A DNA stretch of 41,015 bases from Candidatus Aminicenantes bacterium (GTDB lineage Bacteria > Acidobacteriota > Aminicenantia > Aminicenantales > UBA4085). Each line of letters starts with the position of its first letter. Position 1 is the stretch's first letter. The notes under the pieces are model-generated. The model was not told where the DNA came from and did not search any database. It saw nothing but the letters and a program-made list of their open reading frames with translations. The position numbers and the translations under genes were made by a program. Location: positions 1-41,015 of the forward strand of contig JAPKZH010000500.1 of assembly GCA_026393905.1 (NCBI GenBank), given 5' to 3'. Positions 646 through 32,934 of the stretch are shown in pieces.

Positions 646-1845
646 TCATTGCGGACACGTGTGCTTTTTTCTGCTGTGGATGCCTTGACATCCTTTTGCC
701 CCGCAATTCCACTTATGGTTTTCTTTATCAGGGCAGGAATCTTCCGGCTTTTCATGGCCCGGACAGGGCGGGTCAACCCGGCGGCAATACCAGGTCCCCG
801 AGGGACAAACGTGGTCACGACGCATATGGCCGCCGCAATCTCGAGCCCCACACGTCCACTTATGTGGCTTTCTATTTGGATGACTCTCTAAGGATGTTAA
901 AAATCCTTTATAGAGTTGGGTAAGACTGAAGCGCGTATCCATTCCATCGAAGAACCCTCCCACTACGTGTGTCTCATCCTCTTTTTCTTTTCCCTCCCCC
1001 GACGGTTCCTCATCTTTTATACGCGGCTTGAGATCTCGCCACAGTCGTCTTTGATGTCTCCGGAGCAAGTCGGGATCTTTAGGGATGTCATTGATCGAAC
1101 GCATAGCAAAATCCACATAATTCGTATGAGCCCAGTAGTCCTCAGCTGTATGAAGTGCGTATCCAAACTCTGCAAGCAGGTCCGATCGACTTTTTTTGAT
1201 TGGATCTGGTTCTCCTTGCGCATTCATGAACTTTACGAGATCGCGCTCGACCAGAGTCAATATCTCCGCTATATTCAAAATGTGATCCTCTATAAATTTA
1301 TAAACTTTCTTTGAATCTGAAAATCCTTTTCGGTCTATGGGCCAGCGATCAAAATGCTCATGAGGAAAATATTGTGAAAAGCGGCTTATGCTCCCTCCGA
1401 CTTTTTTCCCATGGAAAATGCGGTCGTACTCGTCAAAGCTAATTGGTCCGGCGCCCAAGTGGACAAGGTTTTTTGAGGGGCCCTCCGGCGAACAGAATTC
1501 AACCCAACCGGCTACATAAGCGACGTTTTTAAACCATTGCGCCATAGCTGAATTGACCGGAGGCGGATTGCCCAGGAGCTCACGGATGAGTTTGTTCGCC
1601 CTCCAGTGTATGGCGATGTCCGGCACAAGATATCGAAAAATCCAGCTTTCTTTATTTTTGTCGTCGACACCCTTGTTTCTGGCATCCGTCATATTAGCGG
1701 CATAATCAACGGGGGCAACACCTTGCGACACGTCCGTAAGCCAGTTGCCGAGCAAAAGATAGCCGAGATTTTCATTAGGAAATGCCTCTCGTAACTTAGG
1801 GAGACACGCTTCTATGCCGATTATTTTGTGGTTTTTTGGGACCAT
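646..1845 (-). CDS. HET-C-like domain protein with a Cys/His-rich C-terminal tail; putative T6SS effector (predicted phospholipase C / nuclease-like fold)
   Basis: 399-aa ORF starting at ATG with a GAGGAGAG SD upstream, ending at TGA. GNWLTDVSQ (aa 33-41) and HTAEDYWAHTNY (aa 232-243) match the HET-C signatures as I remember them. No signal peptide. The last ~78 aa contain 9 Cys and two HKW[TN]CGA..C.G.H.R..H.CP repeats. It is co-directional and lies 29 nt after the preceding cargo gene. Confidence 0.65.
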   Translation of the reverse strand: MVPKNHKIIGIEACLPKLREAFPNENLGYLLLGNWLTDVSQGVAPVDYAANMTDARNKGVDDKNKESWIFRYLVPDIAIHWRANKLIRELLGNPPPVNSAMAQWFKNVAYVAGWVEFCSPEGPSKNLVHLGAGPISFDEYDRIFHGKKVGGSISRFSQYFPHEHFDRWPIDRKGFSDSKKVYKFIEDHILNIAEILTLVERDLVKFMNAQGEPDPIKKSRSDLLAEFGYALHTAEDYWAHTNYVDFAMRSINDIPKDPDLLRRHQRRLWRDLKPRIKDEEPSGEGKEKEDETHVVGGFFDGMDTRFSLTQLYKGFLTSLESHPNRKPHKWTCGARDCGGHMRRDHVCPSGTWYCRRVDPPCPGHEKPEDSCPDKENHKWNCGAKGCQGIHSRKKHTCPQ

Positions 1846-1874: not shown

Positions 1875-2738
1875 TTATGGCTCCTCTTCGAACTCTGGAA
1901 AATTTAGAACATATGATCCCGGAATGACCCCGTCAACTTTAGCATAGCCTTTATCATCGAGTGTTCCCTGTATTTCCGAACCGTCGGCAAGCTTGATGAC
2001 ATATTTGGCCCCGCTGATCGGCTCACGAGACTCGTGGAAGAGCTCAATCTCGATCCAATCCTTGAACTCCAGAAGCCCCGAATCGGCCGCCAACTCACCG
2101 AATTTTACACGGAAAAAGTACTCCGGTGGATTGTACTTATTGCCATACTTCTTCAACTCTTCTTCAGTCGGGATTTCATCCGTATCTTCAAAATATTCAT
2201 ATTCCCAATCCGCTTCGACCTTACTGTTCTTGACCAAAACCGGGAATTTAGTGATGAAATCATGAGCGTCATCAGAATCATGTTCCCAAATCTCGATTTC
2301 ACCTTCTGTGCCGTCTTGGACACCCTTCACGTCCGCCGTGAGCTTGAGGATGTCGCCCCGGCGGGCTTCTTTTTTGTCCCATTTGGCATTGGTAATTTCA
2401 ATCGGCGGCAGAACAATCAAGGGATTAGACTTCATTTGCAAGCCGTGCTTGGGCAACTTTACATCAGCATAAAGCGCCTGTTTGGCTTCTGCCGGCACCT
2501 TGATTTGTGTCCAGAACCGGTTTCCCGAGATTTTTTCTGCATACTTTCCAAACGTTTTGCCGTTTTGATCTGATAATTCGATTTCAATTTTCGAACCATT
2601 GCCAACGAACTGTGTATAAATTTCCAATCCAATCGATCCGCCCGGTGCGGCCCTTCTCACCGTCCACAGGACGCATTGGATAGCCGAGGGAAGCTGGACC
2701 TTCTTGATTTGGTCGGTCGGACTCTGATGCTTGGACAT
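1875..2738 (-). CDS. beta-sandwich repeat protein paralogous to the C-terminal extension of the PAAR protein; possible adaptor or co-secreted cargo
   Basis: 287-aa ORF, ATG start, TAA stop. By hand alignment aa 113-287 match aa 197-363 of the PAAR protein at roughly one-third identity. Shared strings include AKW.K....G...KLTA..G...GT.G, K.EA.WEY, PE..F, SGLL...DWIE, KY...L..G....G.LD..G.AKV...IPG. Confidence 0.7.
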   Translation of the reverse strand: MSKHQSPTDQIKKVQLPSAIQCVLWTVRRAAPGGSIGLEIYTQFVGNGSKIEIELSDQNGKTFGKYAEKISGNRFWTQIKVPAEAKQALYADVKLPKHGLQMKSNPLIVLPPIEITNAKWDKKEARRGDILKLTADVKGVQDGTEGEIEIWEHDSDDAHDFITKFPVLVKNSKVEADWEYEYFEDTDEIPTEEELKKYGNKYNPPEYFFRVKFGELAADSGLLEFKDWIEIELFHESREPISGAKYVIKLADGSEIQGTLDDKGYAKVDGVIPGSYVLNFPEFEEEP

Positions 2739-2753
2739 GGACTTAACAGTATT

Positions 2754-4028
2754 TTATTGAAGGCAAAATATTTTTCGAACTCCAGCCAAATAGACTCTGC
2801 CGTCTTCATCCATGACGGGACGACAGGTGACCGGGTCATCGAGTTGAACCTTGCAGAGTTCTTTGCCTTCTGCCGAAATATGATAAAAAAGCACTCCGCC
2901 TGCAACGAGCACCGAACCGTCCTTCAAGACGGAGATCAATGCTTTTCCCGGCTCGACAACGAGCCCCCGGTTCCAGAGCTCCTGCCCTTCCTTGAAGCAA
3001 AGAAGCCGGTTTTTCTCCATTATATAAACCCTTCCATCCGGGTGGCTTGCCGGTGGCTGGCCTGTGAGCGTTGCCCTTCCTAGAGGGGCCTCCCAGCCTG
3101 GGCTTCCATCCCGGAGAATCATTTTCAGAATAAAGCGTTCTTCTCTGTCCTCCCTGTATTCCTGATGTTCGATAAGGAGCACATTGCCTTGGTAGTCTAG
3201 GGCACAAGAAACGACTTCTTCAAAAGGCACAATTCTTACCCCCGCCTCAGAATTCGCCTTGGGATCAAGGAGATAGATCTCAGTTGTCCGGGGTATACAA
3301 ACGAAACTCAGACTTTTGTCTAACAGCGCGTCTAAGGCAAATCCTTGCCCAACAAACTCCCATTCGATATTTCTTGGTTCAACATTCAGCCTAATGAATG
3401 TCCAAAAGGGACCCTGCGCTTTCTGCCCCGGTTCGCTGACAGGAGAAGGCGAGGTTTGATAGGAATAGATCATGCTTCCGTCCAGTCTCTGGCTCATAAA
3501 AAGGAAGGTCTTGCTTCCCAAAAAAGGGAGCGAAAGTTTTTTTGAGGGATGCCCTTCCAGGTTGATGATCTCATAATAGCCAGCCTGATCCAAGGTCACA
3601 AGTCCTTCTTTCTTCAGGTCAAAGGCATAATTGGAGAAGACTTCACGGTGCCAGAGCGGCCGGCCTGACATGCGGTCACGAACATCGAAGACGGGGCCAT
3701 AACTTATGATGAGATGGGTCTTTGTGAGGGCGATGGTTCGCGGCGGCATCGGATTCTTGCCGAGAACCGTCTCCTGTTCCCAAGCCTTAGTCCCCTTGAG
3801 CTTCTTGGCCACATCGAGATAGGAAGTGTTTTGAGTATCCCCATATATCTTCGTGTTAAGAAAAATTGCCTCGGCCATTTTCCCCTCCTGACATCCTGTA
3901 TGAATGATTCCGGCGGCGGCCCCAAACAGAATGACCCCGGTCAGACACGCTGCCAGGATTTTGCCCGTTTGTTTCTCCATGGGCTGGAATCCATTCCAGT
4001 CCGCTGAACGCGACCTCCCACGATTCAT
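2754..4028 (-). CDS. N-terminally membrane-anchored (or lipoprotein) beta-propeller-like protein (PQQ/BamB-like repeats); candidate immunity protein
   Basis: 424-aa ORF, ATG 4028 (alternative ATG 3980), TAA stop. Hydrophobic segment ILAACLTGVILFGAAAGIIHTGC near the N-terminus. Repeated G.vy......l.c....G..lW-type strands (DGRVYIMEKNRLLCFKEGQELW, DGSVLVAGGVLFYHISAEGKEL, DGRVYLAGVRKIFCL). It starts 18 nt after the 1156-aa gene. Confidence 0.6.
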   Translation of the reverse strand: MNRGRSRSADWNGFQPMEKQTGKILAACLTGVILFGAAAGIIHTGCQEGKMAEAIFLNTKIYGDTQNTSYLDVAKKLKGTKAWEQETVLGKNPMPPRTIALTKTHLIISYGPVFDVRDRMSGRPLWHREVFSNYAFDLKKEGLVTLDQAGYYEIINLEGHPSKKLSLPFLGSKTFLFMSQRLDGSMIYSYQTSPSPVSEPGQKAQGPFWTFIRLNVEPRNIEWEFVGQGFALDALLDKSLSFVCIPRTTEIYLLDPKANSEAGVRIVPFEEVVSCALDYQGNVLLIEHQEYREDREERFILKMILRDGSPGWEAPLGRATLTGQPPASHPDGRVYIMEKNRLLCFKEGQELWNRGLVVEPGKALISVLKDGSVLVAGGVLFYHISAEGKELCKVQLDDPVTCRPVMDEDGRVYLAGVRKIFCLQ

Positions 4029-4046
4029 TGGATCGTCAACTTTTTC

Positions 4047-7000
4047 TCAGAACTCCTCCAGCGAAAAATTTTCGCCTAAGCTGCTCAATTTGTTATTCAC
4101 CCAATCTCTCAAGAAGGCGAAGGCGGCCTTCCACGTCGTCTGGGCGTTGAGGAAATAAGTGACCAATTGATCGGCGGTCGCATCATTATAGACCGTGACT
4201 GTCCCTGCCGCATTAGGAAAAAAATCCCCAGTACCGGGATAGTTGGTCTTCAGAAATTCAAGGATATAATGTTGGCCCGTTGAAGTGGCACTATCCGTGA
4301 AACCGGGCAAGAAATGAATATAGATATTCTTCATGTCATGAGCGCCGTCCTTGAGACGATAATGGCCGCCAAAAGCCAGCCATTTCTGATGAATATCATA
4401 AACCCTCATCCGTTTCTGCACATTCGTCCATGCGCCATGAGAGAAATCAACCCTGAGCAGGACCCGGACAACAAGAACACCTTGATATTGGATGGGCTCT
4501 TGATTCAGATGAAAATATTTGATCGACGACTCATCTTTGCCAACATCATAGAGCTCAAGGCTCAGCCTCCGCAAGGGCGTGGCCGTTAATCGATAAGCCT
4601 TTTCGCTCTCAATCGGATCCGTCATTTTATCCTTTATTGTAGGCTGCCCGGCGGCCCCGATTTTTCTTGTATAAGTAATATCCCAGGAGTCTCGGACCAG
4701 CCTGGCAACGAAGGTTTTCCCGCCCAGTTTTTGCGATAACAGAGAAGAAGCGGTCTGGATTTCTCGATTAATTTTGTGCAGCGCATACCACAGATGGTGC
4801 AAACGGGGAGCGGCATTCCGGTACATCATTGACGGAAAATTGGCTTCCATCGAATAGGGGATGTAATACTGCTCCAAGTCAGGAAAGCTCTGCTTGTTGG
4901 GTTCCGGGCGATAACTGTCTTTGACATATTCATCGGGCTTGCCTGTCGCATGGCCCAGCTCATGAGCAAATGTATGAGCGCCATATTGGTCGCCATGCTC
5001 TGTTACAGGCACTCCGGTAAAAATATCATTCCAGCATTTATAGCCAGACTTGTTGAGCTTGAACAGAGAATAATGCGTGGGTCCTTCATTCCGGATGCTC
5101 CACTGCCAGGCGTCTCCCCAATGGCCGTTTTCGTCACCGCTGACAAGGGCCAAAAACTTGGATCTTCCCCCTAAAGCCGTCTGTTGAGCTGTTTTAAGAT
5201 TCGCATGGTTGAACAGCATGACATGGTTGGAAGCAGGATTATCGGCCGGCCTTTTTTCAAAGTCGATTTTGAATCCTCCCGGAGGAACAGTGACCGAGAA
5301 CGTTTCGCGCTCATCATAAATATAGTAAATCCTGATGATTGTCGAGTCTGACGAGTTGGGTCTCTCCTCCAGAAAATACCGTTTTCTATTCCACTCCTCC
5401 ATGGCCAGATAGACACCTTCATCCACATATTTCTGAACATCGGCTTGAGCTGGAACGGCTGGAATGGCTGGAACGGCCGCCGGATCCCGGGTGTCGAGCA
5501 TAAAACTGATGGAAACATGATAAATGGCATAGGAGACAGGATGCGTGCCGTCGAAGTGAAGGTGATGGAAGTAATGAAGGTCATAATCTCCTGTCGAGCC
5601 ATATTGGTCATCGACGAAAAGCATCGTATAAAGCAGATGATAATCCCTATCGTTCCGGACAGCCGCTCTGGCTCCCACGACAAACCCCTTCTTTTCCCAA
5701 TCCGGCGCCAGCGGTGTTCTTCTGCCTCCGATGGTATAAAAACCATCTCGAAAAAAAATGATTTTGGCCCCCTTCCTCACTTCGGGATTCCCCACGACGA
5801 GATTCCTGGGAAATGAAATTCTGGAAGAGGCCAACGTGTTTGGATCCGGTTGGTAGAGCTTTAGGAATCCAGTTGCCTCGTCCATCAGGATGATTCTTAT
5901 CCGGGAGACCGAGGTCCTTCCGCTCTGGCTGAGGTCCATGGCCACAGCGGGAATTTCGTGATTGGCGTCCTTGATATCTTGGGTCCCGCTGATGCCGTCT
6001 AAGAGGACAATATCATCCAGACAAAAAATCAGAGGATTGCCGGTATCTGTCGTGCCCTGCCCTAGGGGTTTCAATTTCTTTTCCTGTTCAAATACCTTTT
6101 CAAATCGCTCGCTCTTGCCTGTCGCAAGATCTCCATCATAATAGGTCCAATAATTCCGGGAAGACCAAAGGGCGGGAAGATCATAATAATGCGTTCTCTG
6201 TTCCAGGCTAAGGTTCTTGATCTCGGCTGGAGTTTTGGTGACGATGACTGGCGTAGCGCCTTTTTTTTCCGTATAAACCCACTGGTTTTCAGTCTTGAAT
6301 TCGAAGTGGAGGCTCTTATGTTTGCCATCGTCAAGGGGCGATTTGAAATGGACTTTGAGACAATAAACCCCCTTCTTCCATGATCCCTTCGTCTGGAGTT
6401 CCTCAGTCTCATTTTCAAACGCCTGGATCTTCAATCCCTCCGGAACCGCGGTTACCGCGTTCTCGACGCTATTAAAAAATTGAAAGCTTAGGTGGTAGAC
6501 GACGGCGTAGAGGTCGAGAGCGTCGATGTAGTGAGGTTCAAAATGGAGTTTGTAATAGAGGGGACAGACTTCGGCCTTGTGGGTGGATTTGACGTCGGCC
6601 GGGCAATCCATATAGGGAGCTTCTTTGCCCTCAAAGAAAAGGATCTCCACCCGGCGGTTTCTTTGGGAGCGGTAATTCGGTTTCTCCTTCTGGTCGATGG
6701 GAAAGGATTCGCCGCAGCCGACGACCTTGCGCTGGACATCGACCCATTTGTTTGGATCCTCCCGAAGGATCCTCCGGCGATTCTCCACACCGTCCTTCGT
6801 CTCCATAAAGATGCGGGCCATTTCCGCGCTATAGAGCTCAAAGACCGCCTTCCAGAGATCTTTTGTCCATCGCTTTTGACCATCCTTCTCAACTGTTTCA
6901 TGAAGGAGAGAAGAAAGAGGAGGGAGCTTCGGGTCCTGCTTTTCCGCAAAGTCTGTATTATAAGATTCGACAAAATTCCTGATGGCTTCCTTGGTCTTCG

Positions 7001-7517
7001 CGTTCCAGCTGTCGTTGATATCGCCGGGATCGCAGGGCCATTTATACGGCGCATTGTCGGCGAAATACTTAAGAATTTGCTGGTAGTCCTCGATCTTCTG
7101 TTTTTCATAGCAGATGTCCGCCCAGCGGTCTCCCTCCCCCGTCACGAGGCAGAGGACATTTTGGGCCCGGAGCTTCGAAAGTGCAAAATTGTAGTCGGGC
7201 TGGCCGGAAGTATCCGTATGGCCGGCGATGATCATCTTTTTGTCCGGGTAGAATTCGAAGTGCTTAAAAACAAGGGCGAGGGCTTTGATCCCGGTGATGT
7301 TTTCCTGGCCGTCGGGCGCCTGGCTGCCGTCCTTGGAGGATTTCCCCTTGGGATTTTCGGGCATCATCACAGCGCTGTTGTGGTGGAAGAGGACATCTTC
7401 CATCTCGAGGATGTAGACCTGGACGCGCCGGAGCGTGAACTCGTAGGTCTGATGGCTGTAGGTAAAGACCTTGCCCAAGAGATCCCGGCAAATGACGTCT
7501 CTTTTAAGGGAGCCCAA
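4047..7517 (-). CDS. large signal-less protein with an N-terminal OmpA-like peptidoglycan-binding domain and a C-terminal HExxH zinc-metallopeptidase motif; putative T6SS effector
   Basis: 1156-aa ORF starting at TTG 7517, 17 nt after the PAAR stop, ending at TGA. OmpA_C-like signatures: FHHNSAVMM, IIAGHTDTSGQPDYNFALSKLRAQNV, NRRVEILFF. HTFAHELGHATGKPDEY sits at aa 848-864, with HELGH encoded at nt 4950-4964. No N-terminal hydrophobic segment. Confidence 0.75.
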   Translation of the reverse strand: MGSLKRDVICRDLLGKVFTYSHQTYEFTLRRVQVYILEMEDVLFHHNSAVMMPENPKGKSSKDGSQAPDGQENITGIKALALVFKHFEFYPDKKMIIAGHTDTSGQPDYNFALSKLRAQNVLCLVTGEGDRWADICYEKQKIEDYQQILKYFADNAPYKWPCDPGDINDSWNAKTKEAIRNFVESYNTDFAEKQDPKLPPLSSLLHETVEKDGQKRWTKDLWKAVFELYSAEMARIFMETKDGVENRRRILREDPNKWVDVQRKVVGCGESFPIDQKEKPNYRSQRNRRVEILFFEGKEAPYMDCPADVKSTHKAEVCPLYYKLHFEPHYIDALDLYAVVYHLSFQFFNSVENAVTAVPEGLKIQAFENETEELQTKGSWKKGVYCLKVHFKSPLDDGKHKSLHFEFKTENQWVYTEKKGATPVIVTKTPAEIKNLSLEQRTHYYDLPALWSSRNYWTYYDGDLATGKSERFEKVFEQEKKLKPLGQGTTDTGNPLIFCLDDIVLLDGISGTQDIKDANHEIPAVAMDLSQSGRTSVSRIRIILMDEATGFLKLYQPDPNTLASSRISFPRNLVVGNPEVRKGAKIIFFRDGFYTIGGRRTPLAPDWEKKGFVVGARAAVRNDRDYHLLYTMLFVDDQYGSTGDYDLHYFHHLHFDGTHPVSYAIYHVSISFMLDTRDPAAVPAIPAVPAQADVQKYVDEGVYLAMEEWNRKRYFLEERPNSSDSTIIRIYYIYDERETFSVTVPPGGFKIDFEKRPADNPASNHVMLFNHANLKTAQQTALGGRSKFLALVSGDENGHWGDAWQWSIRNEGPTHYSLFKLNKSGYKCWNDIFTGVPVTEHGDQYGAHTFAHELGHATGKPDEYVKDSYRPEPNKQSFPDLEQYYIPYSMEANFPSMMYRNAAPRLHHLWYALHKINREIQTASSLLSQKLGGKTFVARLVRDSWDITYTRKIGAAGQPTIKDKMTDPIESEKAYRLTATPLRRLSLELYDVGKDESSIKYFHLNQEPIQYQGVLVVRVLLRVDFSHGAWTNVQKRMRVYDIHQKWLAFGGHYRLKDGAHDMKNIYIHFLPGFTDSATSTGQHYILEFLKTNYPGTGDFFPNAAGTVTVYNDATADQLVTYFLNAQTTWKAAFAFLRDWVNNKLSSLGENFSLEEF

Positions 7518-7534
7518 GGGATTTTTTCCTGTGC

Positions 7535-8626
7535 TTATTTCCGAGGGTCGAGGAAGATCTTCACTTTGCCCGGCGGGATGTCCTTGACTTTGGCGTGTCC
7601 GCTTGAATCGAGTTTCCCTTCCCGGGTCTCGCCGCTGGCCAGATAAAGCTTGTATTTTTTATTGGCCAGGGGATTCCCCTGATCGTCTTTGAAGGTGAAT
7701 TCGATCCAGTCTCGATAGGTGAGCAGCCCCGAACGCGACTCGCAGTTCTCGACGCCGGCCACGAAATAGAATTCGGGGGCCGAATAGGGCTCGTCCTGCG
7801 TTTTCAGGTTCTTTTCCTCCAGAGATTCTTGACGAATAACGTATTCCCACTCGGCCTCGATCTTGTCGCCTTGAACTTGGGTCTCGATGGTCACGTGGAG
7901 AATATCGGGCTTATTAATGTCCCGCCTGAAAACCTGAAAGACGCCTTTTGTTCCGTTTTCGAACCCGATGGTTTCGGCCGTCAGCTTGACCTTCTCTCCG
8001 ACTTCGGGATTGTTTTTTGACCACTTGGCGCTGTGGACGCTGAATAGCTGAGCATTACACTGGCCGGCGTTCAATGCATCGCGGCAGATCCGGCCGTCCG
8101 GCTTCAAAACTCCCTTTGACTCTTTGCCACTAGGGTCGGTAAATTTGTAATGAACGCCGCTGACCGGTTTGCCGGCTTTATCGACGAACTCAAACTCGAC
8201 CCAGTGCTCTGCTTTCGTCGAAGCTTCCTTGTTATCAGAAAGCGCTGTAGCGGCGGCGATATGCGCTGCGGCTGCAGAACTAAGGCCGACTTTGATCGGT
8301 CCCGGCCCTGCGGCGGCTCCAGCCATTGTCTCACCGATCAGGACCGTAAAACAGCCTAGGGCAATCATATCCGGGGGCCCAACGCACATAGCCATGTCTC
8401 CCATTCGTGCGGCCGGCATCCCGCCAATCAAAACTCCAAAACTCCCCAGGATGACAGGTCCCCCGACATGAGGAATGGGGGGAACGCCTGGAGTGAGCAT
8501 CGGGCAGACATGCATATCTGATATCCGCGCGGCCGGCATCCCGCCGATGAGGACGGTCGGCCACCCCATGACGATCGCCCCGCCATGGGCCGTCATATCG
8601 CCGATTCGCGCCGCCGGTTTTCCCAT
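7535..8626 (-). CDS. PAAR-domain spike-tip protein with a ~260-aa C-terminal beta-sandwich (transthyretin/carboxypeptidase-regulatory-like) extension
   Basis: 363-aa ORF starting at ATG with an AGGAAGGAGAG SD, ending at TAA. Three PAAR motifs (KPAARIGD, MPAARISD, MPAARMGD) lie within aa 1-100 and are followed by an Ala/Gly linker. Two W[IV]EF.F.D..G.P......Y.......G....G.L...G modules follow. It lies immediately downstream of vgrG. Confidence 0.9.
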   Translation of the reverse strand: MGKPAARIGDMTAHGGAIVMGWPTVLIGGMPAARISDMHVCPMLTPGVPPIPHVGGPVILGSFGVLIGGMPAARMGDMAMCVGPPDMIALGCFTVLIGETMAGAAAGPGPIKVGLSSAAAAHIAAATALSDNKEASTKAEHWVEFEFVDKAGKPVSGVHYKFTDPSGKESKGVLKPDGRICRDALNAGQCNAQLFSVHSAKWSKNNPEVGEKVKLTAETIGFENGTKGVFQVFRRDINKPDILHVTIETQVQGDKIEAEWEYVIRQESLEEKNLKTQDEPYSAPEFYFVAGVENCESRSGLLTYRDWIEFTFKDDQGNPLANKKYKLYLASGETREGKLDSSGHAKVKDIPPGKVKIFLDPRK

Positions 8627-8654: not shown

Positions 8655-10844
8655 CTAATTGATCATAACAACGCCGCCCTTAATCGTCGTCATCCCGCTT
8701 CCACTCACATTCGTCATCGGGCTTTCAAGATTGGCCATCAGCCCGCCTTTGGCCTCGAGCATCATGCCTCCCTCGATCTTCGCATTCATATCCGCTTTCA
8801 TTTCAGTATTCAGGCCTTTCAGCTTCAGGTCCATGTTGGCTTTCGCGGAAATGCCCATATCGGCCTTTAAATCGTAATTCGCGCACTTCTCCTTGATATC
8901 GGCGCTCGCTTCCATCTCGTAGTTTCCGCTAGCTTCGCATTTGATGTTGGCCGCCTTGAGCGACGTGTCCGCTGAGGTTTCGATGTTCAGCGTCGTGGCC
9001 TTGATTTCGATCGTCCCGTTCGGCGCGTGCATGTCGATGCTCCCATCCTTTGTCTTGATGACGAGCTTGTTGTTGGTGATATCGATGATGAAGATATTCG
9101 CGTCGGCTTTATCGGCCACGGTGATGCTTTCCCCTCCGCTCGAATCGTCGATGCACAGGCGGTGGCCGTTCTTGCTCTGGACGGTGATCTTGGTGTTTTT
9201 ATCATCCATGATCATCAGGTGGCCGTCGGTCGTCTGAACGGTGATATTCTTGTTTTTGTCATCGAACGTGAACTTGTGTTTCTTGGTGGTCACGATCTCA
9301 ATCTTATCGTCTTTATCATCCAGCAAGACTTTATGGCCATCCGTCGTGGTGATCCCGATTTGAGACTCATTTGTTTTGTCGTCCAGGACGATCTCGTTTC
9401 CCGCGGCCGTACGGATGATGCTTTGAGATTTATTATCTCTGGTCACAGGAGAGACTTGGGAGGGGTTGGGGACCGTGCCAAGGCCGATCGGCCGGTCCAG
9501 ATCTCCGTTGATGCAGGAAAAAATCATTTCTGTATCCGCATGGTTGGGAAAATGGACGCCGTATCCCGGACCAGAATAAGGCTGGATCAGGCGAATCGGC
9601 CGGGAGGCCTCTCCGTTTGTCTTATCACTCAAGTCGAACAAAAGTTTAGCTTTGTAGCGGCCGTGGTCATCGACGAAAGCATATTCATCTCCGGCTCCGG
9701 ATTCTACCCTGGCCGTCATAACGCCCGGGATGGTGGGGACGGGCGTAATCCGAGGTGGACGATACTTGATCTCCATCGGAATCGCCTCAAAAACGTTCTC
9801 GAAGGTGGGGAGGACTTGCTTGGCTTCAGGCAGGATGGCGAACAGACCCCGCTGTGTCCCGCGGGAAACGACTTTGGTGAGGATCAATTCCTTGTCATTC
9901 CAGTCGTCGCGATAGTGTTTTCCCATTTTGAACTTGAAACCCGCCAGGAAAAGCCGGCAATCGCCTCGCCCTTTGAAGATTTTGCTCCGGGACAGGATTT
10001 CCTCGTTCCTCACTTTGGCCAGGAACTCCCCCTCGCGGGTCTCTTTGTAATGATCGCCGTATTCATAATACAGGCCGGGCGCATCCGGGTCGATCTGGCT
10101 CTCCACCGTCAAATCTTTCGAAGGAAAGCGATAGTTGTAATTCTTGAGCCGGACCAGTCCGGTGACGACCTGGGCCTGGTAGGAAATCTCGTCAATCGTC
10201 TCCTTCTGGCTCAAGGGATCACTGTTGGGATTGTAGTAGATATCCTCGGCCTGCTCGATCGACGGCAAGGTATCGTTGGAGTCCGTAAAAACGATCACAT
10301 CGTTCTCGCTGCGATGATCAAAGTAATAGAAAATGCCGTAGTGCTCCAGGCGGCGGTTGATGAAATCAAAATTCGTCTCTCGGAATTGGACGGCGTACTC
10401 GAGATCGGGATAGGATTCTCGGAGGTCAAACTTGTAATCCTGCCCTGAGAAGCCGGAATTCTTGAGGACTTGAGTGACGATCTTCTCGACGTTCATTTTC
10501 TGGAAGACTTCGTTGGCAAACGTCAGCTCCAGGCGCCACATCTTTGGCACGAGCTCGGCATAATACGAGATATAGCGAGGGGTTCTGCCGCGCTGCTCGA
10601 AACGCGAGATGATGCCCTGGATTTTGACCGGATCCTCATCTCCTCTGTTCAGGATAAAGGTGGCCTTTTTATTAAGGATGGCGGCGGGATCAAGCTCCGG
10701 CTCATAAGAAAGGAGTTCGATGCGGTAGATGAAAAGCCGGGAGATCGATTCCTCTCCCTCGAAGGCGAGGACGTGGACAGTATCCTCCGGGAGTCCGCTG
10801 AAGTGGAGTTCAAAGTGAGGTTTATTGTGTTTTGGTTTCGCCAT
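8655..10844 (-). CDS. vgrG: T6SS spike protein VgrG (TssI)
   Basis: gp27/gp5-like sequence with no C-terminal effector domain. The C-terminal beta-helix repeats (ITTTDGHKVLLDDKDDKIEIVT, ITVQTTDGHLMIMDDKNTKITVQS) end in GGVVMIN. I moved the start to ATG 10844 (AGAGAGG SD) rather than ATG 10859. Stop is TAG. Confidence 0.93.
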   Translation of the reverse strand: MAKPKHNKPHFELHFSGLPEDTVHVLAFEGEESISRLFIYRIELLSYEPELDPAAILNKKATFILNRGDEDPVKIQGIISRFEQRGRTPRYISYYAELVPKMWRLELTFANEVFQKMNVEKIVTQVLKNSGFSGQDYKFDLRESYPDLEYAVQFRETNFDFINRRLEHYGIFYYFDHRSENDVIVFTDSNDTLPSIEQAEDIYYNPNSDPLSQKETIDEISYQAQVVTGLVRLKNYNYRFPSKDLTVESQIDPDAPGLYYEYGDHYKETREGEFLAKVRNEEILSRSKIFKGRGDCRLFLAGFKFKMGKHYRDDWNDKELILTKVVSRGTQRGLFAILPEAKQVLPTFENVFEAIPMEIKYRPPRITPVPTIPGVMTARVESGAGDEYAFVDDHGRYKAKLLFDLSDKTNGEASRPIRLIQPYSGPGYGVHFPNHADTEMIFSCINGDLDRPIGLGTVPNPSQVSPVTRDNKSQSIIRTAAGNEIVLDDKTNESQIGITTTDGHKVLLDDKDDKIEIVTTKKHKFTFDDKNKNITVQTTDGHLMIMDDKNTKITVQSKNGHRLCIDDSSGGESITVADKADANIFIIDITNNKLVIKTKDGSIDMHAPNGTIEIKATTLNIETSADTSLKAANIKCEASGNYEMEASADIKEKCANYDLKADMGISAKANMDLKLKGLNTEMKADMNAKIEGGMMLEAKGGLMANLESPMTNVSGSGMTTIKGGVVMIN

Positions 10845-13473
10845 GGCTGCCTCTCTCATTGAAGGTATATTTAAAATTGCCCTCTTTGTCCTTGCCGACT
10901 TTGAGATGCGTCGGCGTTTTTCCCTCGGCCATGAAGCCGAGCAGATAAGTCGCTATATCCGGAGTGATTTTGCGGTCAATGATCGCGTCGATGTTTCTGG
11001 CTCCCGTCTCTGCGCTGGTGCAGGATTCGACAATGTCTTTGATAACGGCTTTGGCAAATTCCACTTCAAGCTTCTGGTTCTCCTTGAGCTTGCGGCTGAT
11101 TCGGGAAAGCTTCAGCTCCACAATTTGCTTCAGGACGTCCTGGTTGAGAGGGAGGAGAAGAATGGGCTTGACGCGGCCGAGAAACTCGGGCCGGAAATGC
11201 TGGATGAGATAGGGACGCATCTCTTCCAGAAGCCCATCGGGAGAAGTCACTCCCTGCTCGATTTTTTTAAAGATGACCTCCGAAGCCAGGTTGGAAGTCA
11301 TGAAGATGATCGTGTTGTTGAAGCTGATCTGCCGTCGCTCCGAATCCTGGAGCATCCCCCGGTCGAAAACCTGCATGAAGAGGTCGATGACGGAGTGGTT
11401 GGCTTTCTCGATCTCATCTAGGAGGACCACGCAATAGGGACGGCGGCGGACCGGCTCGCTGAGCGCTCCTCCTTCTCCGTAGCCGATAAGTCCAGGATCG
11501 GCACCGATGAGGCGCGAGGTGTTGTATTCGTTCTGGTACTCCGTCATGTTCAGGGTCACGATGAACCTTTCGTCTCCGAACAGAGCCTCGGCGACCGCCC
11601 GGGCAAGCTCGGTCTTCCCAACTCCGCTCGGCCCGATGAGGAAGAAAACTCCGATCGGAGCTTCTTCCCTTTTCAGCCCGACTTTTGTCCCCCGGATTAC
11701 GTCCGCGATCTGCTTGATAGCATGGTCCTGACCGATGACTCGCTTCTTAAGCTCTTCCTCCATCTGGAGGATGGTGGCCATCTCGTCCCGAGTCATCTTG
11801 CCGACGGGGATGCCCGTCCAGGACTCGATGACTTCGGCCACAGTCATAGGGGTGACATCGGCAAAGACTTGAGGATGGTCTCCCTGGTACGTTTTGATCT
11901 CTTCGCTGAGAGCCGTGGTGTCTTTCTCGATCTGGACACGGTCAGGGGATTTTGGATCCGCCGCGAATTTTTTTATGCGGAGCTCTCTCAGCTTGTTGAT
12001 GAGTTCAACCTCTTTCTTCCAGCGCTCCTCCTTTTCCTGGATCTCCTTTTCCAGCTGGGATTTTTCTTCGTTCAAGCGCGACAGCTCCTGCGAGTTATCC
12101 ATGATCTTCAGGTCATGATCTTTTTCGAGCGCGGCAATTTTCAGCTTATAGGAATTCAGGTCGCTCAGGAGGAGCGCCAGGCTCGGAGGCCGGCTGGTCA
12201 GCGACATCTTCACCCGGGTGGCCGCTGTATCGAGAAGGTCAATCGCCTTGTCGGGAAGCTGGCGGCCGGCAATGTACTTACGAGAAAGCTTGACGGCGGT
12301 CTCGACGGCGGTGTCGGAGATATGGATTCCGTGATAGGCTTCGTATTTGGTCTTGATCCCCCGGAGCATGAGCATGGCTTTCTCATCATCCGGCTCGCCG
12401 ATATGGATCGGCTGGAAACGGCGTTCCAGGGCGGCATCCTTGGCGAAGTACTTGTTGTATTCGAGATAGGTCGTCGCCGCGACGGCCCGAAAGTCGCCGC
12501 GGGCCAGGGCGGGCTTGAGGAGGTTAGCCGCATCGCCGCCCCCCGCCGACGCACCCGCGCCGACGAGGGTATGAGCCTCATCGATAAACAGGATGGTTTT
12601 ATGGATGGACTTGGTGACCTCGTTGATGACGGCCTTGAACCGCTGCTCAAATTCGCCGCGCATCTTTGTCCCAGCCTGCAGAGCGCCCAGGTCAAGGGTG
12701 TGGATCTGGACATTCTTGAGGACATCGGGGACCTCATCGGCGGCAATTTTGAGCGCCAGGCCTTCGACCACGGCCGTCTTCCCCACTCCCGGCTCGCCCA
12801 GGAGAATGGGGTTTGATTTTTTCCTTCGGCTCAAAACTTCGGTGATCTGGATGATCTCGTCATCGCGGCCCAGGATCGGGTCAATCTTTCCTTCCTTGGC
12901 CTGAGCCGTAAGGTTGGTGGTGTAGATATCGAGCACGCTTCCGCCCGGGGGAATTTCCCTGGCCTGTTCGGCCGGCAGAGTCTCCATGGCAGCCGCCTCA
13001 TCCTCCACCGATCCGGTCACGAACTTGTGAAACTCTGTGGTCAGTTCCTCCTGGTTGATCCTGGAAAGGACATCCATCAACCCGGTGCTGATGATCTGTT
13101 CTGAAGCGATAAAGACCTCAAAGAGAGCGCCCGAACGGATCTTGGTCTCTTTGTGGTGGACGGAGCTTGTGATCCAGGCCTGTTCCAGGAGTTCGGTCAA
13201 CAGGGGAGAGAGCTTGGGCTTTCCCGGATTGCCCGTGGCCATCTCGTCCAGGTTTCGGGTGCAAATCTCCTGGACGCGGCCGGAATCGATGGCATAGTGT
13301 TTCAAGATGAGCGGGACATCTCCCTGTCCGTCCTCGATGAGGGAGTTCAAGAGGTGTTCCATCGTGATTTCGTAGTTTCCTCTCTTGATTCCTATTCCCG
13401 TTGCCGTGTCAAGGTTCCGGATGAGGTGGTTGTTGAGTTTGAGGAGGAGTGCCCTTAGGTCTTTGCTTTTCAT
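10822..13473 (-). CDS. clpV: T6SS AAA+ ATPase ClpV (TssH)
   Basis: 883 aa with a ClpB-like architecture. Two Walker A motifs (GEPGVGKTAVVEGLA, GPSGVGKTELARAVA), a coiled-coil middle region and a ClpV-type N domain. Its end overlaps the vgrG start by 23 nt. Confidence 0.95.
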   Translation of the reverse strand: MKSKDLRALLLKLNNHLIRNLDTATGIGIKRGNYEITMEHLLNSLIEDGQGDVPLILKHYAIDSGRVQEICTRNLDEMATGNPGKPKLSPLLTELLEQAWITSSVHHKETKIRSGALFEVFIASEQIISTGLMDVLSRINQEELTTEFHKFVTGSVEDEAAAMETLPAEQAREIPPGGSVLDIYTTNLTAQAKEGKIDPILGRDDEIIQITEVLSRRKKSNPILLGEPGVGKTAVVEGLALKIAADEVPDVLKNVQIHTLDLGALQAGTKMRGEFEQRFKAVINEVTKSIHKTILFIDEAHTLVGAGASAGGGDAANLLKPALARGDFRAVAATTYLEYNKYFAKDAALERRFQPIHIGEPDDEKAMLMLRGIKTKYEAYHGIHISDTAVETAVKLSRKYIAGRQLPDKAIDLLDTAATRVKMSLTSRPPSLALLLSDLNSYKLKIAALEKDHDLKIMDNSQELSRLNEEKSQLEKEIQEKEERWKKEVELINKLRELRIKKFAADPKSPDRVQIEKDTTALSEEIKTYQGDHPQVFADVTPMTVAEVIESWTGIPVGKMTRDEMATILQMEEELKKRVIGQDHAIKQIADVIRGTKVGLKREEAPIGVFFLIGPSGVGKTELARAVAEALFGDERFIVTLNMTEYQNEYNTSRLIGADPGLIGYGEGGALSEPVRRRPYCVVLLDEIEKANHSVIDLFMQVFDRGMLQDSERRQISFNNTIIFMTSNLASEVIFKKIEQGVTSPDGLLEEMRPYLIQHFRPEFLGRVKPILLLPLNQDVLKQIVELKLSRISRKLKENQKLEVEFAKAVIKDIVESCTSAETGARNIDAIIDRKITPDIATYLLGFMAEGKTPTHLKVGKDKEGNFKYTFNERGSHGETKTQ

Positions 13474-32688: not shown

Positions 32689-32728
32689 TGCGTTCCTCCC
32701 TCCTTAAAAGTCGTTCTTATTTGGAAAA

Positions 32729-32758
32729 ATTCTATTTCAACTCAAACCTCTTTGTCAA
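32729..32758 (-). promoter_or_regulatory. candidate sigma70 promoter of the 820-aa gene
   Basis: On the minus strand, TTGACA (32758-32753), an 18-nt spacer, then TAGAAT (32734-32729). This leaves a leader of about 35 nt before the strong SD and ATG 32688. Confidence 0.45.
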
Positions 32759-32934
32759 GCCCCCTGCGATAGAGAGCGATTTGGCTGCCGTTCCTCTTCT
32801 CCTCGACCTATCGGCGTTCGAGTTCCCGGATGAATCCCGCTTTCGCCTCTTCCTGGAGACGAGCTCGCCTCTGGGGATCGTCAATGAACTCTTCGTTCGA
32901 CCTAAGGCTCCCTGGTAAGAACGACTTTGGTGTA

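What the first reader, a model, noticed from the sequence alone, without database searches (positions are those of the whole stretch)
4047..7517. 1156-aa signal-less OmpA-like plus HExxH metallopeptidase protein immediately after PAAR: candidate novel cell-wall-targeting T6SS effector
The N-terminal ~300 aa carry the OmpA_C-like peptidoglycan-binding signatures FHHNSAV, AGHTDTSGQPDYNFALSKLRAQNV and NRRVEILFF. An unusually long insertion of roughly 150 aa separates the RAQNV helix from the closing NRRVEI strand. The C-terminal third carries HTFAHELGHATGKPDEY (HELGH at nt 4950-4964). This HExxH-x6-DEY arrangement reminds me of the peptidase M64-type motif, but the family is unverified. The ~500 aa in between match nothing I recognise. 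The protein has no signal peptide or TM segment, and its gene starts 17 nt after the PAAR stop. I see no Rhs, MIX-type or other familiar T6SS cargo markers. A PG-binding domain fused to a metallopeptidase suggests an effector that docks on and cleaves the prey sacculus or envelope proteins. A PG-binding module on a T6SS cargo has a precedent in V. cholerae VgrG-3.
Basis: partly seen in the sequence, partly recalled or inferred. Interest (0 to 1): 0.75.

Follow-up and report, generated by a model that had tools for sequence, protein, structure and literature searches.

The report
PAAR-linked cell-wall-docking metallopeptidase T6SS toxin
This gene most likely encodes a large, uncharacterised toxin that a bacterial type VI "spear gun" injects into rival bacteria, where it is predicted to grip the cell wall and cut with a zinc protease, while the next gene probably encodes the antidote.

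Summary
Window 4047-7517 (-) encodes a 1156-aa protein with no signal peptide or TM segment. It starts 17 nt after an extended PAAR gene in a complete T6SS-i cluster. It has an OmpA-like peptidoglycan-binding domain split by a ~125-aa helical insertion, a conserved beta-rich middle with no detectable relatives, and an invariant HExxHxxGxxDxY plus Met signature. The M64 guess fails: only sub-threshold hits to M12, M6, M64, M10 and M7.

The effector reading is well supported by comparative genomics.
- 57 of 65 related loci have the same extended PAAR directly upstream.
- An exported beta-propeller gene follows, diverges faster than the protein, and co-diverges with it (r=0.88). It also follows the peptidase module in other architectures.
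- A sister locus with a 98-99% identical T6SS core carries a 46-49% identical allele and a 29% identical propeller.
- Paralogs with the same N-terminal module are fused to PAAR or VgrG, or carry other enzymes (C39-like, PAD, PhoD, Metallophos).

The TagL-like anchor alternative fails, because there is no membrane anchor and the locus behaves as a cassette. Secretion, toxicity, immunity and substrate are all untested.

Verdict: a new family of a known kind, periplasm-acting T6SS metallopeptidase effector plus immunity. The possible bonus is a new cargo-marker module.

The parts
4047..7517 (-). Whole gene: 1156-aa protein with no signal peptide, an OmpA-like module and a metzincin-like peptidase (candidate T6SS cargo effector). 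The stop codon is at 4047-4049.
7134..7517 (-). Residues 1-128: N-terminal beta-strands plus the first half of the OmpA-like PG-binding domain. Contains FHHNSAV and GHTDTSG...NFALSKLRAQNV. D102, N110 and R117 are invariant.
6753..7133 (-). Residues 129-255: helical insertion inside the OmpA-like domain. It is homologous to the insertion that scores as PG_binding_1 in paralogs.
6618..6752 (-). Residues 256-300: second half of the OmpA-like domain (CGESFP, NRRVEILFF). R288, R289 and V290 are invariant.
6528..6617 (-). Residues 301-330: linker with invariant C305, H313 and C318 (plus C268 upstream). Possibly a structural metal site or disulfides. Not tested.
5448..6527 (-). Residues 331-690: conserved beta-rich middle region with no detectable relatives. 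From about residue 400 it travels with the peptidase module in other architectures.
4050..5447 (-). Residues 691-1156: metallopeptidase region. The secondary-structure order is that of a metzincin: backing helices 764-780, strands 788-845, active-site helix 849-857, helix 906-921. The C-terminal 220 aa is the most variable part.
4926..4964 (-). Residues 852-864, HELGHATGKPDEY: the zinc-binding and catalytic signature HExxHxxGxxDxY. H852, E853, H856, D862 and Y864 are invariant.
4824..4826 (-). M898, an invariant Met in 'SMM' about 36 residues after the third ligand. Candidate Met-turn.
7535..8626 (-). 363-aa PAAR protein. Its C-terminal extension (residues 143-353) ends in a prealbumin/TTR-like domain. 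Proposed carrier of the effector.
2754..4028 (-). 424-aa PQQ/BamB-like beta-propeller with an N-terminal signal anchor or lipobox-like segment. Proposed periplasmic immunity protein.
1875..2738 (-). 287-aa free-standing paralog of the PAAR C-terminal extension (p287). Proposed adaptor for the next cargo.
646..1845 (-). 399-aa Het-C-like protein with a Cys/His-rich tail. Probable second cargo effector of the same spike module.
8655..10859 (-). VgrG spike protein, directly upstream of the PAAR gene.

Best explanation
The gene encodes a T6SS cargo effector. The proposed mechanism has four steps.

1. Production. The protein is made in the attacker's cytoplasm without an export signal (shown).
2. 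Loading (inferred). It is carried on the spike tip by the upstream PAAR protein, whose TTR-like C-terminal extension serves as its docking adaptor.
3. Action in the prey periplasm (inferred). Its split OmpA-like/PGB-like N-terminal module binds the DAP-containing stem peptides of peptidoglycan. This positions a zinc endopeptidase of metzincin type, with H852, H856 and D862 as metal ligands, E853 as the general base and M898 as the Met-turn. The peptidase then cleaves either peptidoglycan-associated envelope proteins (OmpA/Pal/lipoprotein tethers) or the peptide part of the sacculus, and so damages the envelope.
4. Self-protection (inferred). The downstream exported beta-propeller protein is the cognate periplasmic immunity protein. 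It protects kin cells by binding the peptidase module.

The protein is one member of a large combinatorial family. The same N-terminal PG-binding module is joined to different enzymes, and the peptidase module keeps its propeller partner whatever its N-terminus.
For: Setting. A complete T6SS-i cluster ends in ClpV-VgrG-PAAR-target.

No export signal..

PG-binding domain. The fold and the binding residues D102 and R117 are conserved.

Peptidase. The catalytic signature is invariant in 88 homologs and present in 116 of 120. All weak family hits are zincins or metzincins. The secondary-structure order matches a metzincin.

Linkage to PAAR. 57 of 65 loci have the extended PAAR directly upstream. 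The module sits beside both T6SS-i and T6SS-iii-like clusters.

Partner gene.
- Most beta-propeller partners have signal peptides, and many have a lipobox-like Cys.
- The partner is less conserved than the target in 99.7% of 372 locus pairs.
- Its divergence correlates with the target's at r=0.88, against 0.41 for p287.
- It also follows the peptidase module in TTR-CBM/TIG architectures and in orphan pairs away from T6SS genes.

Cassette behaviour.
- Window vs L008: ClpV 99%, VgrG 98%, target 46-49%, propeller 29%. There is no blastn match over 2730-7074.
- Further such pairs: L038/L055, L024/L075, L064/L071.

Paralogs.
- Proteins with the same N-terminal module (39% identity, E 3e-66) are fused to PAAR (P0126) or VgrG (P0133, P0134).
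- Others carry different enzymes: C39-like, PAD, PhoD, Metallophos.

Accessory genes. DUF1795/Eag-type and DUF4123 T6SS adaptor genes occur in some modules (PMC4524185).

Precedents.
- VgrG2b/Tpe1 are periplasm-acting metallopeptidase effectors with envelope-located immunity (PMC6899460).
- TTR folds on PAAR and VgrG load cargo (PMC6899460).
- OmpA-type tethers are a T6SS target in Bacteroides (PMC12541434).
Against: - Nothing is experimentally shown. Secretion, toxicity, zinc binding, PG binding and immunity are all inferred.
- No solved metzincin matches the peptidase region convincingly. Foldseek gives probability 0.1-0.2 to TACE, and the isolated-core model was too poor to search.
- The module is unusually constant across phyla for an effector. 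That leaves room for a role in spike function itself.
- PAAR and VgrG fusions were found for paralogs that share the N-terminal module. None appeared in the Pfam columns of the 120 listed target-family hits, and the remaining hits were not examined.
- 16 of 65 loci gave no tblastn propeller hit with the window's copy as query. At least L031/L032 were missed by the script's distance filter, because a propeller ORF is present there. Others may be too divergent to detect.
- All target-family members come from MAGs. Some bins are mislabelled.
Confidence: 0.75

Rival explanations
1. Spike-tip penetration enzyme. The protein rides on PAAR and locally opens the prey (or the attacker's own) peptidoglycan so that the spike and other cargo can pass, like the T4 gp5 lysozyme. 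It would be a quasi-structural part of the machine, not primarily a toxin. The propeller would merely protect the producer.
For: - The module is almost always present beside T6SS clusters of two subtypes across several phyla.
- The position at the PAAR tip, the PG-binding module and the hydrolase are as expected for such an enzyme.
- A second apparent cargo (Het-C) follows in the same operon.
Against: - Cassette replacement occurs inside 98-99% identical clusters, and the protein diverges fast together with an exported partner. That is the behaviour of toxin/immunity pairs under conflict, not of machine parts.
- Orphan pairs sit far from any T6SS genes.
- Some MAGs carry several copies.
- The same N-terminal module carries non-lytic enzymes such as PAD and phosphatases.
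- This rival is not exclusive of the best explanation.
Confidence: 0.12
2. Processing peptidase plus another toxic part. The HExxH domain is an autoproteolytic or releasing peptidase, as in PVC-type polymorphic toxins. The real toxic activity would lie in the variable C-terminal ~220 aa, or in non-enzymatic PG binding by the OmpA-like domain (Tox-OmpA idea).
For: - Releasing metallopeptidases and a proposed OmpA toxin domain exist in polymorphic toxin systems (PMC3482391).
- The last 220 aa are the least conserved part.
- A non-enzymatic effector that interferes with OmpA is known in Bacteroides (PMC12541434).
Against: - The C-terminal region is alignable across the family and is not swapped for unrelated domains.
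- The full-length model is one compact, confident assembly with pTM 0.84.
- The propeller partner tracks the middle-plus-peptidase module even when the OmpA module is absent.
Confidence: 0.07
3. TagL-like structural anchor. Because TssL here is the short form without a PG-binding domain, this OmpA-like protein would anchor the producer's own T6SS membrane complex to the cell wall.
For: - TssL is 244 aa and has the DotU domain only.
- No other OmpA-domain protein was found among the window ORFs scanned.
- Loci with 'ancestral' TssL often carry tagL (PMC13584744).
Against: - TagL has three TM helices and a periplasmic PG-binding domain (PMC13584744). This protein has no TM segment or signal peptide and so cannot reach its own periplasm.
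- It carries an invariant protease site.
- It is replaced as a cassette within identical core clusters.
- It also occurs beside T6SS-iii-like clusters and as orphan pairs.
Confidence: 0.04
4. Protease aimed at non-bacterial targets or the environment, such as eukaryotic prey or nutrient release, delivered by T6SS.
For: - Relatives of the peptidase module carry CBM_5_12 and TIG domains, which are typical of secreted polysaccharide-binding enzymes.
- Weak similarity to M6 InhA and M64 proteases, which act on host proteins.
Against: - The OmpA-like module has an intact DAP-binding Asp and Arg, which point to bacterial peptidoglycan.
- An exported partner that co-diverges with the protein makes sense only if kin cells are at risk.
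Confidence: 0.02

Closest known systems
VgrG2b C-terminal domain / Tpe1-Tpi1 metallopeptidase effector-immunity family (P. aeruginosa, A. baylyi; PMC6899460)
   Same: - HExxH zinc metallopeptidase delivered by T6SS on the spike.
- Acts in the prey periplasm.
- Immunity protein is exported, either as a lipoprotein or membrane-anchored.
- A TTR-like domain is implicated in loading.
   Different: - No detectable sequence or fold relationship. It is absent from the PDB sequence hits and from the top 50 Foldseek hits.
- Here the effector is a separate 1156-aa cargo, not a VgrG fusion.
- It carries its own PG-binding module.
- The signature is metzincin-like (HExxHxxGxxD plus Met).
- The immunity candidate is a beta-propeller.
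V. cholerae VgrG-3 (PG-binding plus lysozyme-like spike effector)
   Same: A PG-binding module is combined with an envelope-degrading enzyme on the T6SS spike. This rests on established knowledge and is cited in PMC11148199.
   Different: - VgrG-3 is fused to VgrG.
- VgrG-3 is reported to degrade peptidoglycan (PMC11148199); here the enzyme is a peptidase of unknown substrate.
- Its PG-binding module is, from my own knowledge and not checked here, not an OmpA-like domain.
TagL / long TssL / TagN / TagP OmpA-like anchors of the T6SS (PMC13584744)
   Same: OmpA/Pal/MotB-type PG-binding domain encoded in a T6SS locus whose TssL lacks one.
   Different: - No TM segments or signal peptide.
- Has a protease domain.
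- Sits after PAAR and evolves as a cassette.
- It works like an effector, not an anchor.
Metzincin-type zinc endopeptidases with an Asp third ligand or a DEY tail: snapalysin M7, InhA M6, IgA peptidase M64, reprolysin-like M12, serralysin/MMP M10
   Same: - HExxHxxGxxD motif, followed by (E/D)Y as in M6 and M64.
- Invariant downstream Met.
- Helix-strands-helix order.
- These are the only families hit, weakly.
   Different: - No family reaches its curated threshold. The best case is Reprolysin_5 at 19.9 bits against a gathering score of 27 for the window core. TIGR03296 scores 21.6 against 110.8.
- A large conserved ~400-aa beta-rich region and a 220-aa tail are specific to this family.
N-terminal marker domains of polymorphic T6SS cargo effectors (MIX, FIX, RIX; PMC10435454) and Tox-OmpA (PMC3482391)
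   Same: A conserved N-terminal module is shared by effectors with different C-terminal toxins and is linked to spike genes. An OmpA domain has been noted before in contractile-injection toxins.
   Different: - Here the module is itself a PG-binding OmpA/PGB domain at the N-terminus. Tox-OmpA is at the C-terminus.
- It is paired with TTR-like PAAR, VgrG or p287 domains.
- I found no paper describing it (6 full-text searches).

Membership tests
OmpA_C-like peptidoglycan-binding domain (PF00691) | Match to the family HMM at the curated threshold | tested here: inconclusive
   The window protein scores 24.2 bits against a gathering score of 27.2. All 40 family members scanned hit at E<=0.05, best 2e-8. 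A family profile hits Pal and OprF PDB chains at E 6e-5.
OmpA_C-like peptidoglycan-binding domain (PF00691) | OmpA-like alpha/beta fold | tested here: met
   Foldseek on the pLDDT 91.5 model gives probability 0.9-0.99 to 5u1h, 4rha, 5nhx, 4g4w, 4b5c and 3td3. The domain is interrupted by a ~125-aa helical insertion.
OmpA_C-like peptidoglycan-binding domain (PF00691) | Conserved Asp and Arg that hold the DAP carboxylate (GHTD...LS..RA). The role of these residues is from established knowledge of OmpA/Pal structures. | tested here: met
   D102, N110 and R117 are invariant in 88 homologs.
OmpA_C-like peptidoglycan-binding domain (PF00691) | Actual binding to peptidoglycan | not testable with these tools
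   Needs a pull-down with purified sacculi.
Zincin / metzincin metallopeptidases | HExxH on a helix, extended to HExxHxxGxx(H/D) | tested here: met
   HELGHATGKPD lies at 852-862 on helix 849-857. H852, E853, H856 and D862 are invariant and G859 nearly so.
Zincin / metzincin metallopeptidases | Met-turn below the metal site | tested here: inconclusive
   M898 is invariant in 'SMM' before helix 906-921.
Zincin / metzincin metallopeptidases | Fold similarity to solved members | tested here: inconclusive
   Foldseek gives only probability 0.1-0.2 to TACE/ADAM17. A profile search of PDB gives MMP-10 at E 0.003 and serralysin, snapalysin and InhA at E 0.03-0.5. The isolated-core model had pLDDT 59 and gave meaningless matches.
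   There is no hit for the window protein. 1 of 40 full-length members and 4 of 23 core segments hit weakly.
Peptidase M6 / InhA (PF05547, TIGR03296) | Match to the family HMM at the curated threshold | tested here: not met
   TIGR03296 scores 21.6 bits against 110.8. PF05547 scores 13.2 against 22.
T6SS PAAR/VgrG-associated cargo effector with cognate immunity | Genetic linkage to the spike genes | tested here: met
   The gene starts 17 nt after PAAR, and VgrG lies upstream. 57 of 65 related loci have the extended PAAR directly upstream.
T6SS PAAR/VgrG-associated cargo effector with cognate immunity | No Sec/Tat signal on the effector, and an adjacent partner located where the toxin acts | tested here: met
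   The target has a maximum hydropathy of 1.08. The propeller has an N-terminal hydrophobic segment scoring 2.42, and 38 of 60 homologs pass the cut-off, many with a lipobox-like Cys.
T6SS PAAR/VgrG-associated cargo effector with cognate immunity | Effector and immunity vary together between otherwise related strains | tested here: met
   Window vs L008: core 98-99%, target 46-49%, propeller 29%. r=0.88 over 372 pairs.
T6SS PAAR/VgrG-associated cargo effector with cognate immunity | Homologs covalently fused to PAAR or VgrG | tested here: inconclusive
   Met for paralogs that share the N-terminal module: P0126 PAAR fusion, P0133 and P0134 VgrG fusions. None appeared in the Pfam columns of the 120 listed target-family hits. 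The other hits were not checked.
T6SS PAAR/VgrG-associated cargo effector with cognate immunity | T6SS-dependent secretion, toxicity and neutralisation | not testable with these tools
   Needs experiments.
TagL-type T6SS cell-wall anchor | Inner-membrane anchoring by TM helices with the PG-binding domain in the producer's periplasm (PMC13584744) | tested here: not met
   There is no hydrophobic segment. The maximum KD19 is 1.08.
VgrG2b-Cter / Tpe1 metallopeptidase effector family | Sequence or fold homology to the solved VgrG2b C-terminal domain | tested here: not met
   It is absent from the listed PDB sequence hits (64 and 56 hits at E<=10) and from the top 50 Foldseek hits.

The most novel reading that the evidence does not exclude
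[quoted passage not shown] The class would span the FCB phyla, Desulfobacterota, Acidobacteriota and Planctomycetota.

The module would serve both as the loading handle for the spike and as a device that retargets very different enzymes onto the prey sacculus. The enzymes seen so far are this metzincin-like peptidase, C39-like peptidases, protein-arginine deiminases, PhoD phosphatases and calcineurin-like phosphatases.

The metzincin-like peptidase with its beta-propeller immunity would be a new protease family whose substrate is a PG-tethered envelope protein.
Probability: 0.45. Interest if true: 0.72.

Novelty: new variant of a known kind. Interest (0 to 1): 0.58.

Why it matters
T6SS effectors outside Proteobacteria and Bacteroides are almost unknown. 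This locus gives a large, conserved and fully uncharacterised effector-immunity family in Ignavibacteria, Zixibacteria, Fibrobacterota and relatives. A profile search found 813 representative clusters at E<=1e-30. No Pfam model matches the protease, the middle region or the PAAR extension at its curated threshold.

If the N-terminal PG-binding module is a general cargo marker, it would allow systematic discovery of T6SS toxins in poorly studied phyla. Some would have unusual activities, such as arginine deiminase or phosphatases, directed at the cell envelope. The peptidase could also reveal a new vulnerable target in the link between outer membrane and peptidoglycan.

Tried and rejected
1. 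Domain-level structure test of the HExxH core. Residues 745-935 were folded with a 23-sequence sub-alignment (A3). The model was poor (pLDDT 59) and its Foldseek matches were meaningless (GTPases, ribosomal proteins). This is no evidence either way.
2. Foldseek of the full model against viral structures (BFVD). Nothing was significant. The only suggestive hit was an ascovirus 'matrix metalloproteinase' at probability 0.28.
3. Full-model Foldseek against PDB. The top hits, L,D-transpeptidases, had rmsd above 22 A and probability 0.1 or less. I rejected them as tandem Ig-like noise.
4. M64 or M6 membership. Rejected on curated thresholds.
5. The idea that homologs covering only 60% of the query carry a different toxin domain. 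Rejected, because they keep HExxHxxGxxD.Y and so are divergent versions of the same peptidase.
6. PG_binding_1 in the insertion of the target family itself. Not detected at E<=0.05 in 40 members. It is supported only by homology to paralogs where it is detected.
7. The TagL-like anchor reading. Rejected for lack of any membrane anchor.
8. Literature. Six full-text searches found no description of this family or of an N-terminal OmpA-like T6SS cargo marker. Subscription journals are not covered.
The metal-site geometry and the distance between the PG-binding groove and the active site could not be measured.

Full report
**1. What is in the sequence**

The finding's ORF is real. It runs 4047..7517 on the minus strand, has a TTG start and encodes 1156 aa. 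An AGGA lies 9 nt upstream of the TTG. Homologs align from residues 1-11, and L37, E38, E40 and D41 are (nearly) invariant. The start therefore lies upstream of the internal ATG at M39.

All quoted motifs are at the stated positions, and HELGH is residues 852-856 = nt 4950-4964. The most hydrophobic 19-residue window averages only 1.08 on the Kyte-Doolittle scale, so there is no signal peptide or TM helix.

**2. Setting**

All genes in this part of the window lie on the minus strand and form a complete T6SS-i cluster. The order is FHA, TssJ, TssK, a short TssL (244 aa, DotU domain only), TssM, TagF, TssA, TssB, TssC, Hcp, a 148-aa ORF in the TssE position (not scanned), TssF, TssG, ClpV and VgrG. 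Then comes a 363-aa PAAR protein with a C-terminal extension, and then the target.

Three more genes follow the target:
- a 424-aa PQQ/BamB-like beta-propeller with an N-terminal hydrophobic anchor;
- a 287-aa protein, here called p287;
- a 399-aa Het-C-like protein.

**3. Domain anatomy**

An AlphaFold2 model built on 88 homologs is confident, with mean pLDDT 91.5 and pTM 0.84.

- *Residues ~40-300, OmpA-like domain.* Pfam PF00691 scores 24.2 bits, just below the gathering score of 27.2. It hits 40 of 40 family members. A family profile hits Pal and OprF structures at E 6e-5. Foldseek gives probability 0.9-0.99 to OmpA-like domains. The Asp and Arg that hold the DAP carboxylate in OmpA/Pal structures (established knowledge) are D102 and R117, and both are invariant.
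- *Residues 129-253, helical insertion.* It splits the OmpA-like domain. In paralogs the equivalent segment scores as PG_binding_1. The window's N-terminal 13-321 aligns to such a paralog through the insertion at 39% identity, E 3e-66. PG_binding_1 is not detectable in the target family itself.
- *Residues 331-690, middle region.* It is beta-rich and well conserved. It matches nothing in Pfam, PDB sequences or Foldseek.
- *Residues 691-1156, peptidase region.* H852, E853, H856, D862, Y864 and M898 are invariant. 116 of 120 homologs keep HExxH followed by D.Y. The order of secondary-structure elements is that of a metzincin (my reading): backing helices 764-780, five strands 788-845, active-site helix 849-857, Gly turn, Asp ligand, invariant Met, helix 906-921.

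Every weak family hit is a zincin or metzincin: Reprolysin_5, M6, M64, M66, astacin, MMP-10, serralysin, snapalysin and InhA. None reaches a curated threshold. Foldseek similarity to TACE/ADAM17 is only probability 0.1-0.2. The domain is therefore best described as a divergent metzincin-like peptidase that belongs to no family model in the Pfam or NCBIfam copies searched.

**4. Family and distribution**

The word-indexed protein search found 348 relatives. Most are full length (1085-1280 aa) at 31-54% identity, named 'hypothetical' or 'OmpA family protein'. A profile search of 1.84 billion cluster representatives found 3196 proteins at E<=1e-3 and 813 at E<=1e-30.

In one genome per species, 128 loci encode a relative. 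All 80 loci returned are from uncultured-genome records. They come from Ignavibacteria, Zixibacteria, Fibrobacterota, Chitinivibrionia, Krumholzibacteriota, Gemmatimonadota and GN15, plus a few Desulfobacterales.

**5. Evidence that it is an effector with an immunity partner**

(a) *Linkage.* 57 of 65 loci with enough upstream sequence have the same extended PAAR directly upstream. Two more have a DUF1795/DcrB gene in between. DUF1795 is the Eag family of T6SS effector-associated accessory proteins (PMC4524185). The module sits beside T6SS-i clusters and beside T6SS-iii-like clusters, the latter recognised by PF17541 TssC and PF17642 TssD.

(b) *Partner.* The downstream propeller is exported. 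The window copy has a hydrophobic N-terminus scoring 2.42. 38 of 60 homologs pass the cut-off, and many carry a lipobox-like Cys.

(c) *Co-divergence.* Over 372 locus pairs the median identities are:

| Protein | Median identity |
|---|---|
| Extended PAAR | 49.6% |
| Target | 39.4% |
| Beta-propeller | 25.5% |
| p287 | 45.3% |

The propeller is less conserved than the target in 99.7% of pairs. Its divergence correlates with the target's at r=0.88, against 0.77 for the PAAR protein and 0.41 for p287.

(d) *Cassette replacement.* Locus L008 is 98-99% identical to the window in Hcp, TssF, TssG, ClpV and VgrG. Against that background the spike-module proteins differ sharply:

| Protein | Window vs L008 identity |
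|---|---|
| PAAR, N-terminal domain | 91% |
| PAAR, whole protein | 75% |
| Target | 46-49% |
| Beta-propeller | 29% |
| p287 | 76% |

At the DNA level, identity is 98-99% down to about 8800. It falls to 60-67% over 7075-7934 and is undetectable over 2730-7074. Similar pairs exist elsewhere, for example L038/L055 (ClpV 96%, target 51%), L024/L075 (VgrG 89%, target 32%) and L064/L071.

(e) *Minimal unit.* Target-plus-propeller pairs also occur as orphans next to housekeeping genes, in L020 and L068.

(f) *The partner tracks the peptidase.* Distant proteins have the middle-plus-peptidase module behind a TTR-like N-terminus, together with CBM_5_12 or TIG domains. They too are followed directly by a PQQ-like propeller. 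One of these loci also carries a DUF4123 T6SS adaptor gene.

(g) *Rosetta-stone fusions.* A paralog in L031 (783 aa) lies directly after p287. It has the same N-terminal module but a C39-like peptidase at the C-terminus. Its relatives (441 hits) include the following:
- P0126: PAAR ... OmpA module ... toxin;
- P0133: gp5-OB ... OmpA;
- P0134: VgrG, TTR-like domain, OmpA;
- other proteins in which the module is joined to protein-arginine deiminase, PhoD phosphatase or calcineurin-like phosphoesterase.

The N-terminal module is also the most conserved part of the target, and the C-terminus is the least conserved. That is the pattern of a polymorphic toxin.

**6. Mechanism proposed**

*Shown:*
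- the architecture;
- the absence of an export signal;
- the invariant PG-binding and catalytic residues;
- the genetic linkage and the co-variation.

*Inferred:*
- The PAAR extension ends in a prealbumin/TTR-like domain and is homologous to p287 (E 1e-27). It probably carries the effector, as TTR domains on VgrG and PAAR do for other cargo (PMC6899460).
- After firing, the OmpA/PGB module docks on the prey's peptidoglycan.
- The zinc peptidase then cuts a nearby substrate.
- The propeller blocks the peptidase in kin cells.

The substrate is unknown. I favour PG-associated envelope proteins or their tethers over the stem peptides, because metzincins are protein endopeptidases. This preference is weak. 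Two precedents bear on it. VgrG2b/Tpe1 are periplasmic metallopeptidase effectors with envelope-located immunity (PMC6899460). BteO is a Bacteroides effector that attacks OmpA-type tethers (PMC12541434).

**7. Rivals**

- *TagL-like anchor.* TagL has three TM helices (PMC13584744). This protein has none, and it behaves as a cassette. I consider this reading excluded.
- *Spike-tip penetration enzyme.* Not excluded and not exclusive of the best explanation. The cassette behaviour, the orphan pairs and the multiple copies argue that toxicity to kin is the selective force.
- *Processing peptidase with another toxic part.* Unlikely. The propeller tracks the peptidase module, and the C-terminal tail is family-specific rather than swapped.

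**8. Novelty**

The kind is known: a T6SS cargo metallopeptidase with a periplasmic immunity protein. The family is not. No Pfam or NCBIfam model reaches its curated threshold on the peptidase, the middle region or the PAAR extension. No solved relative was found. No paper was found in six full-text searches.

The more interesting lead is that the N-terminal OmpA/PGB module, together with TTR-like carrier domains, may be a general cargo marker in phyla where T6SS effectors are essentially unexplored.

**9. Limits**

- All evidence is computational.
- All target-family members come from metagenome-assembled genomes.
- Structural confirmation of the peptidase fold was not achieved.
- Model coordinates could not be inspected.

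Noticed in passing
window 7535-8626 (-) and 1875-2738 (-): The PAAR protein's C-terminal extension (residues 143-353) is homologous to the free-standing 287-aa protein p287 (residues 51-274; BLASTP E 1e-27, 29% identity). Both end in a prealbumin/TTR-like domain. p287-like genes recur after the propeller in most loci. In L004 three copies lie downstream of the propeller, the first two separated by a Lactamase_B-like gene. This suggests a family of cargo adaptors that exist either fused to PAAR or free.
   Followed up: partly
window 646-1845 (-): A 399-aa Het-C-like protein (PF07217, 23 bits against a gathering score of 21; motif HTAEDYWAHTNY). Its C-terminus has two Cys/His-rich repeats (HKWTCGARDCGGH... 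and HKWNCGAKGCQG...). Tox-HET-C is a predicted phospholipase C / S1-P1 nuclease-like toxin (PMC3482391). It is probably a second cargo effector. No immunity gene is evident before the contig end.
   Followed up: partly
L031 15390-17741; P0126, P0133, P0134, P0160, P0168, P0212, P0288: The same N-terminal OmpA/PGB module is joined to C39-like peptidase, PhoD phosphatase, protein-arginine deiminase or calcineurin-like phosphoesterase. In some proteins it is fused behind PAAR or VgrG-TTR. Arginine deiminase and the phosphatases joined to this module would, to my knowledge, be unusual T6SS toxin activities.
   Followed up: partly
L088 5745-11424; L089 8001-13666: The middle-plus-peptidase module also occurs without the OmpA module. 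In these proteins it sits behind a TTR-like N-terminus and is combined with CBM_5_12 or TIG domains. It is still followed by a PQQ-like beta-propeller. L088 also has a DUF4123 adaptor gene.
   Followed up: partly
window 6528-6716 (-), residues 268-330: C268, C305, H313 and C318 are invariant across the family, at the junction between the OmpA-like domain and the middle region. This may be a structural Cys3His metal site or disulfides formed in the prey periplasm.
   Followed up: no
L008 (CAZIDN010000001.1): This contig is labelled 'uncultured Eubacteriales bacterium', yet it carries a Gram-negative T6SS-i cluster 98-99% identical to the window's. The bin label is probably wrong.
   Followed up: no
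L003 20768-22255; L031 18957-20453: In related T6SS-i clusters the FHA-domain protein is fused to an SLT lytic transglycosylase domain (495-498 aa). This may be a built-in PG-remodelling function for assembly of the machine. The window's FHA protein (28704-29903) lacks it.
   Followed up: no
L005 16321-18884 and similar loci (L018, L021, L023, L040-L042 and others): In the T6SS-iii-like clusters that carry the module, ClpV appears as two adjacent ORFs (487 aa plus 367 aa), one for each AAA domain.
   Followed up: no
L086 (Desulfosarcina ovata AP021876.1, 2227718-2246195): A cultured organism encodes an 825-aa OmpA-module protein in a T6SS locus with the order TssBC, VgrG, PAAR, DUF6931, PG_binding_1 protein, OmpA-825. 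Several further PG_binding_1 proteins and an M23 peptidase lie nearby. This could be an experimental entry point.
   Followed up: partly
window 30226-35962 (-): Next to the T6SS cluster lie an 820-aa TPR/PEGA/Kre9-like/NHL-repeat protein, a 150-aa and a 614-aa protein with no Pfam hits, and a 245-aa beta-propeller-like protein. Whether they belong to the T6SS locus is unknown.
   Followed up: no
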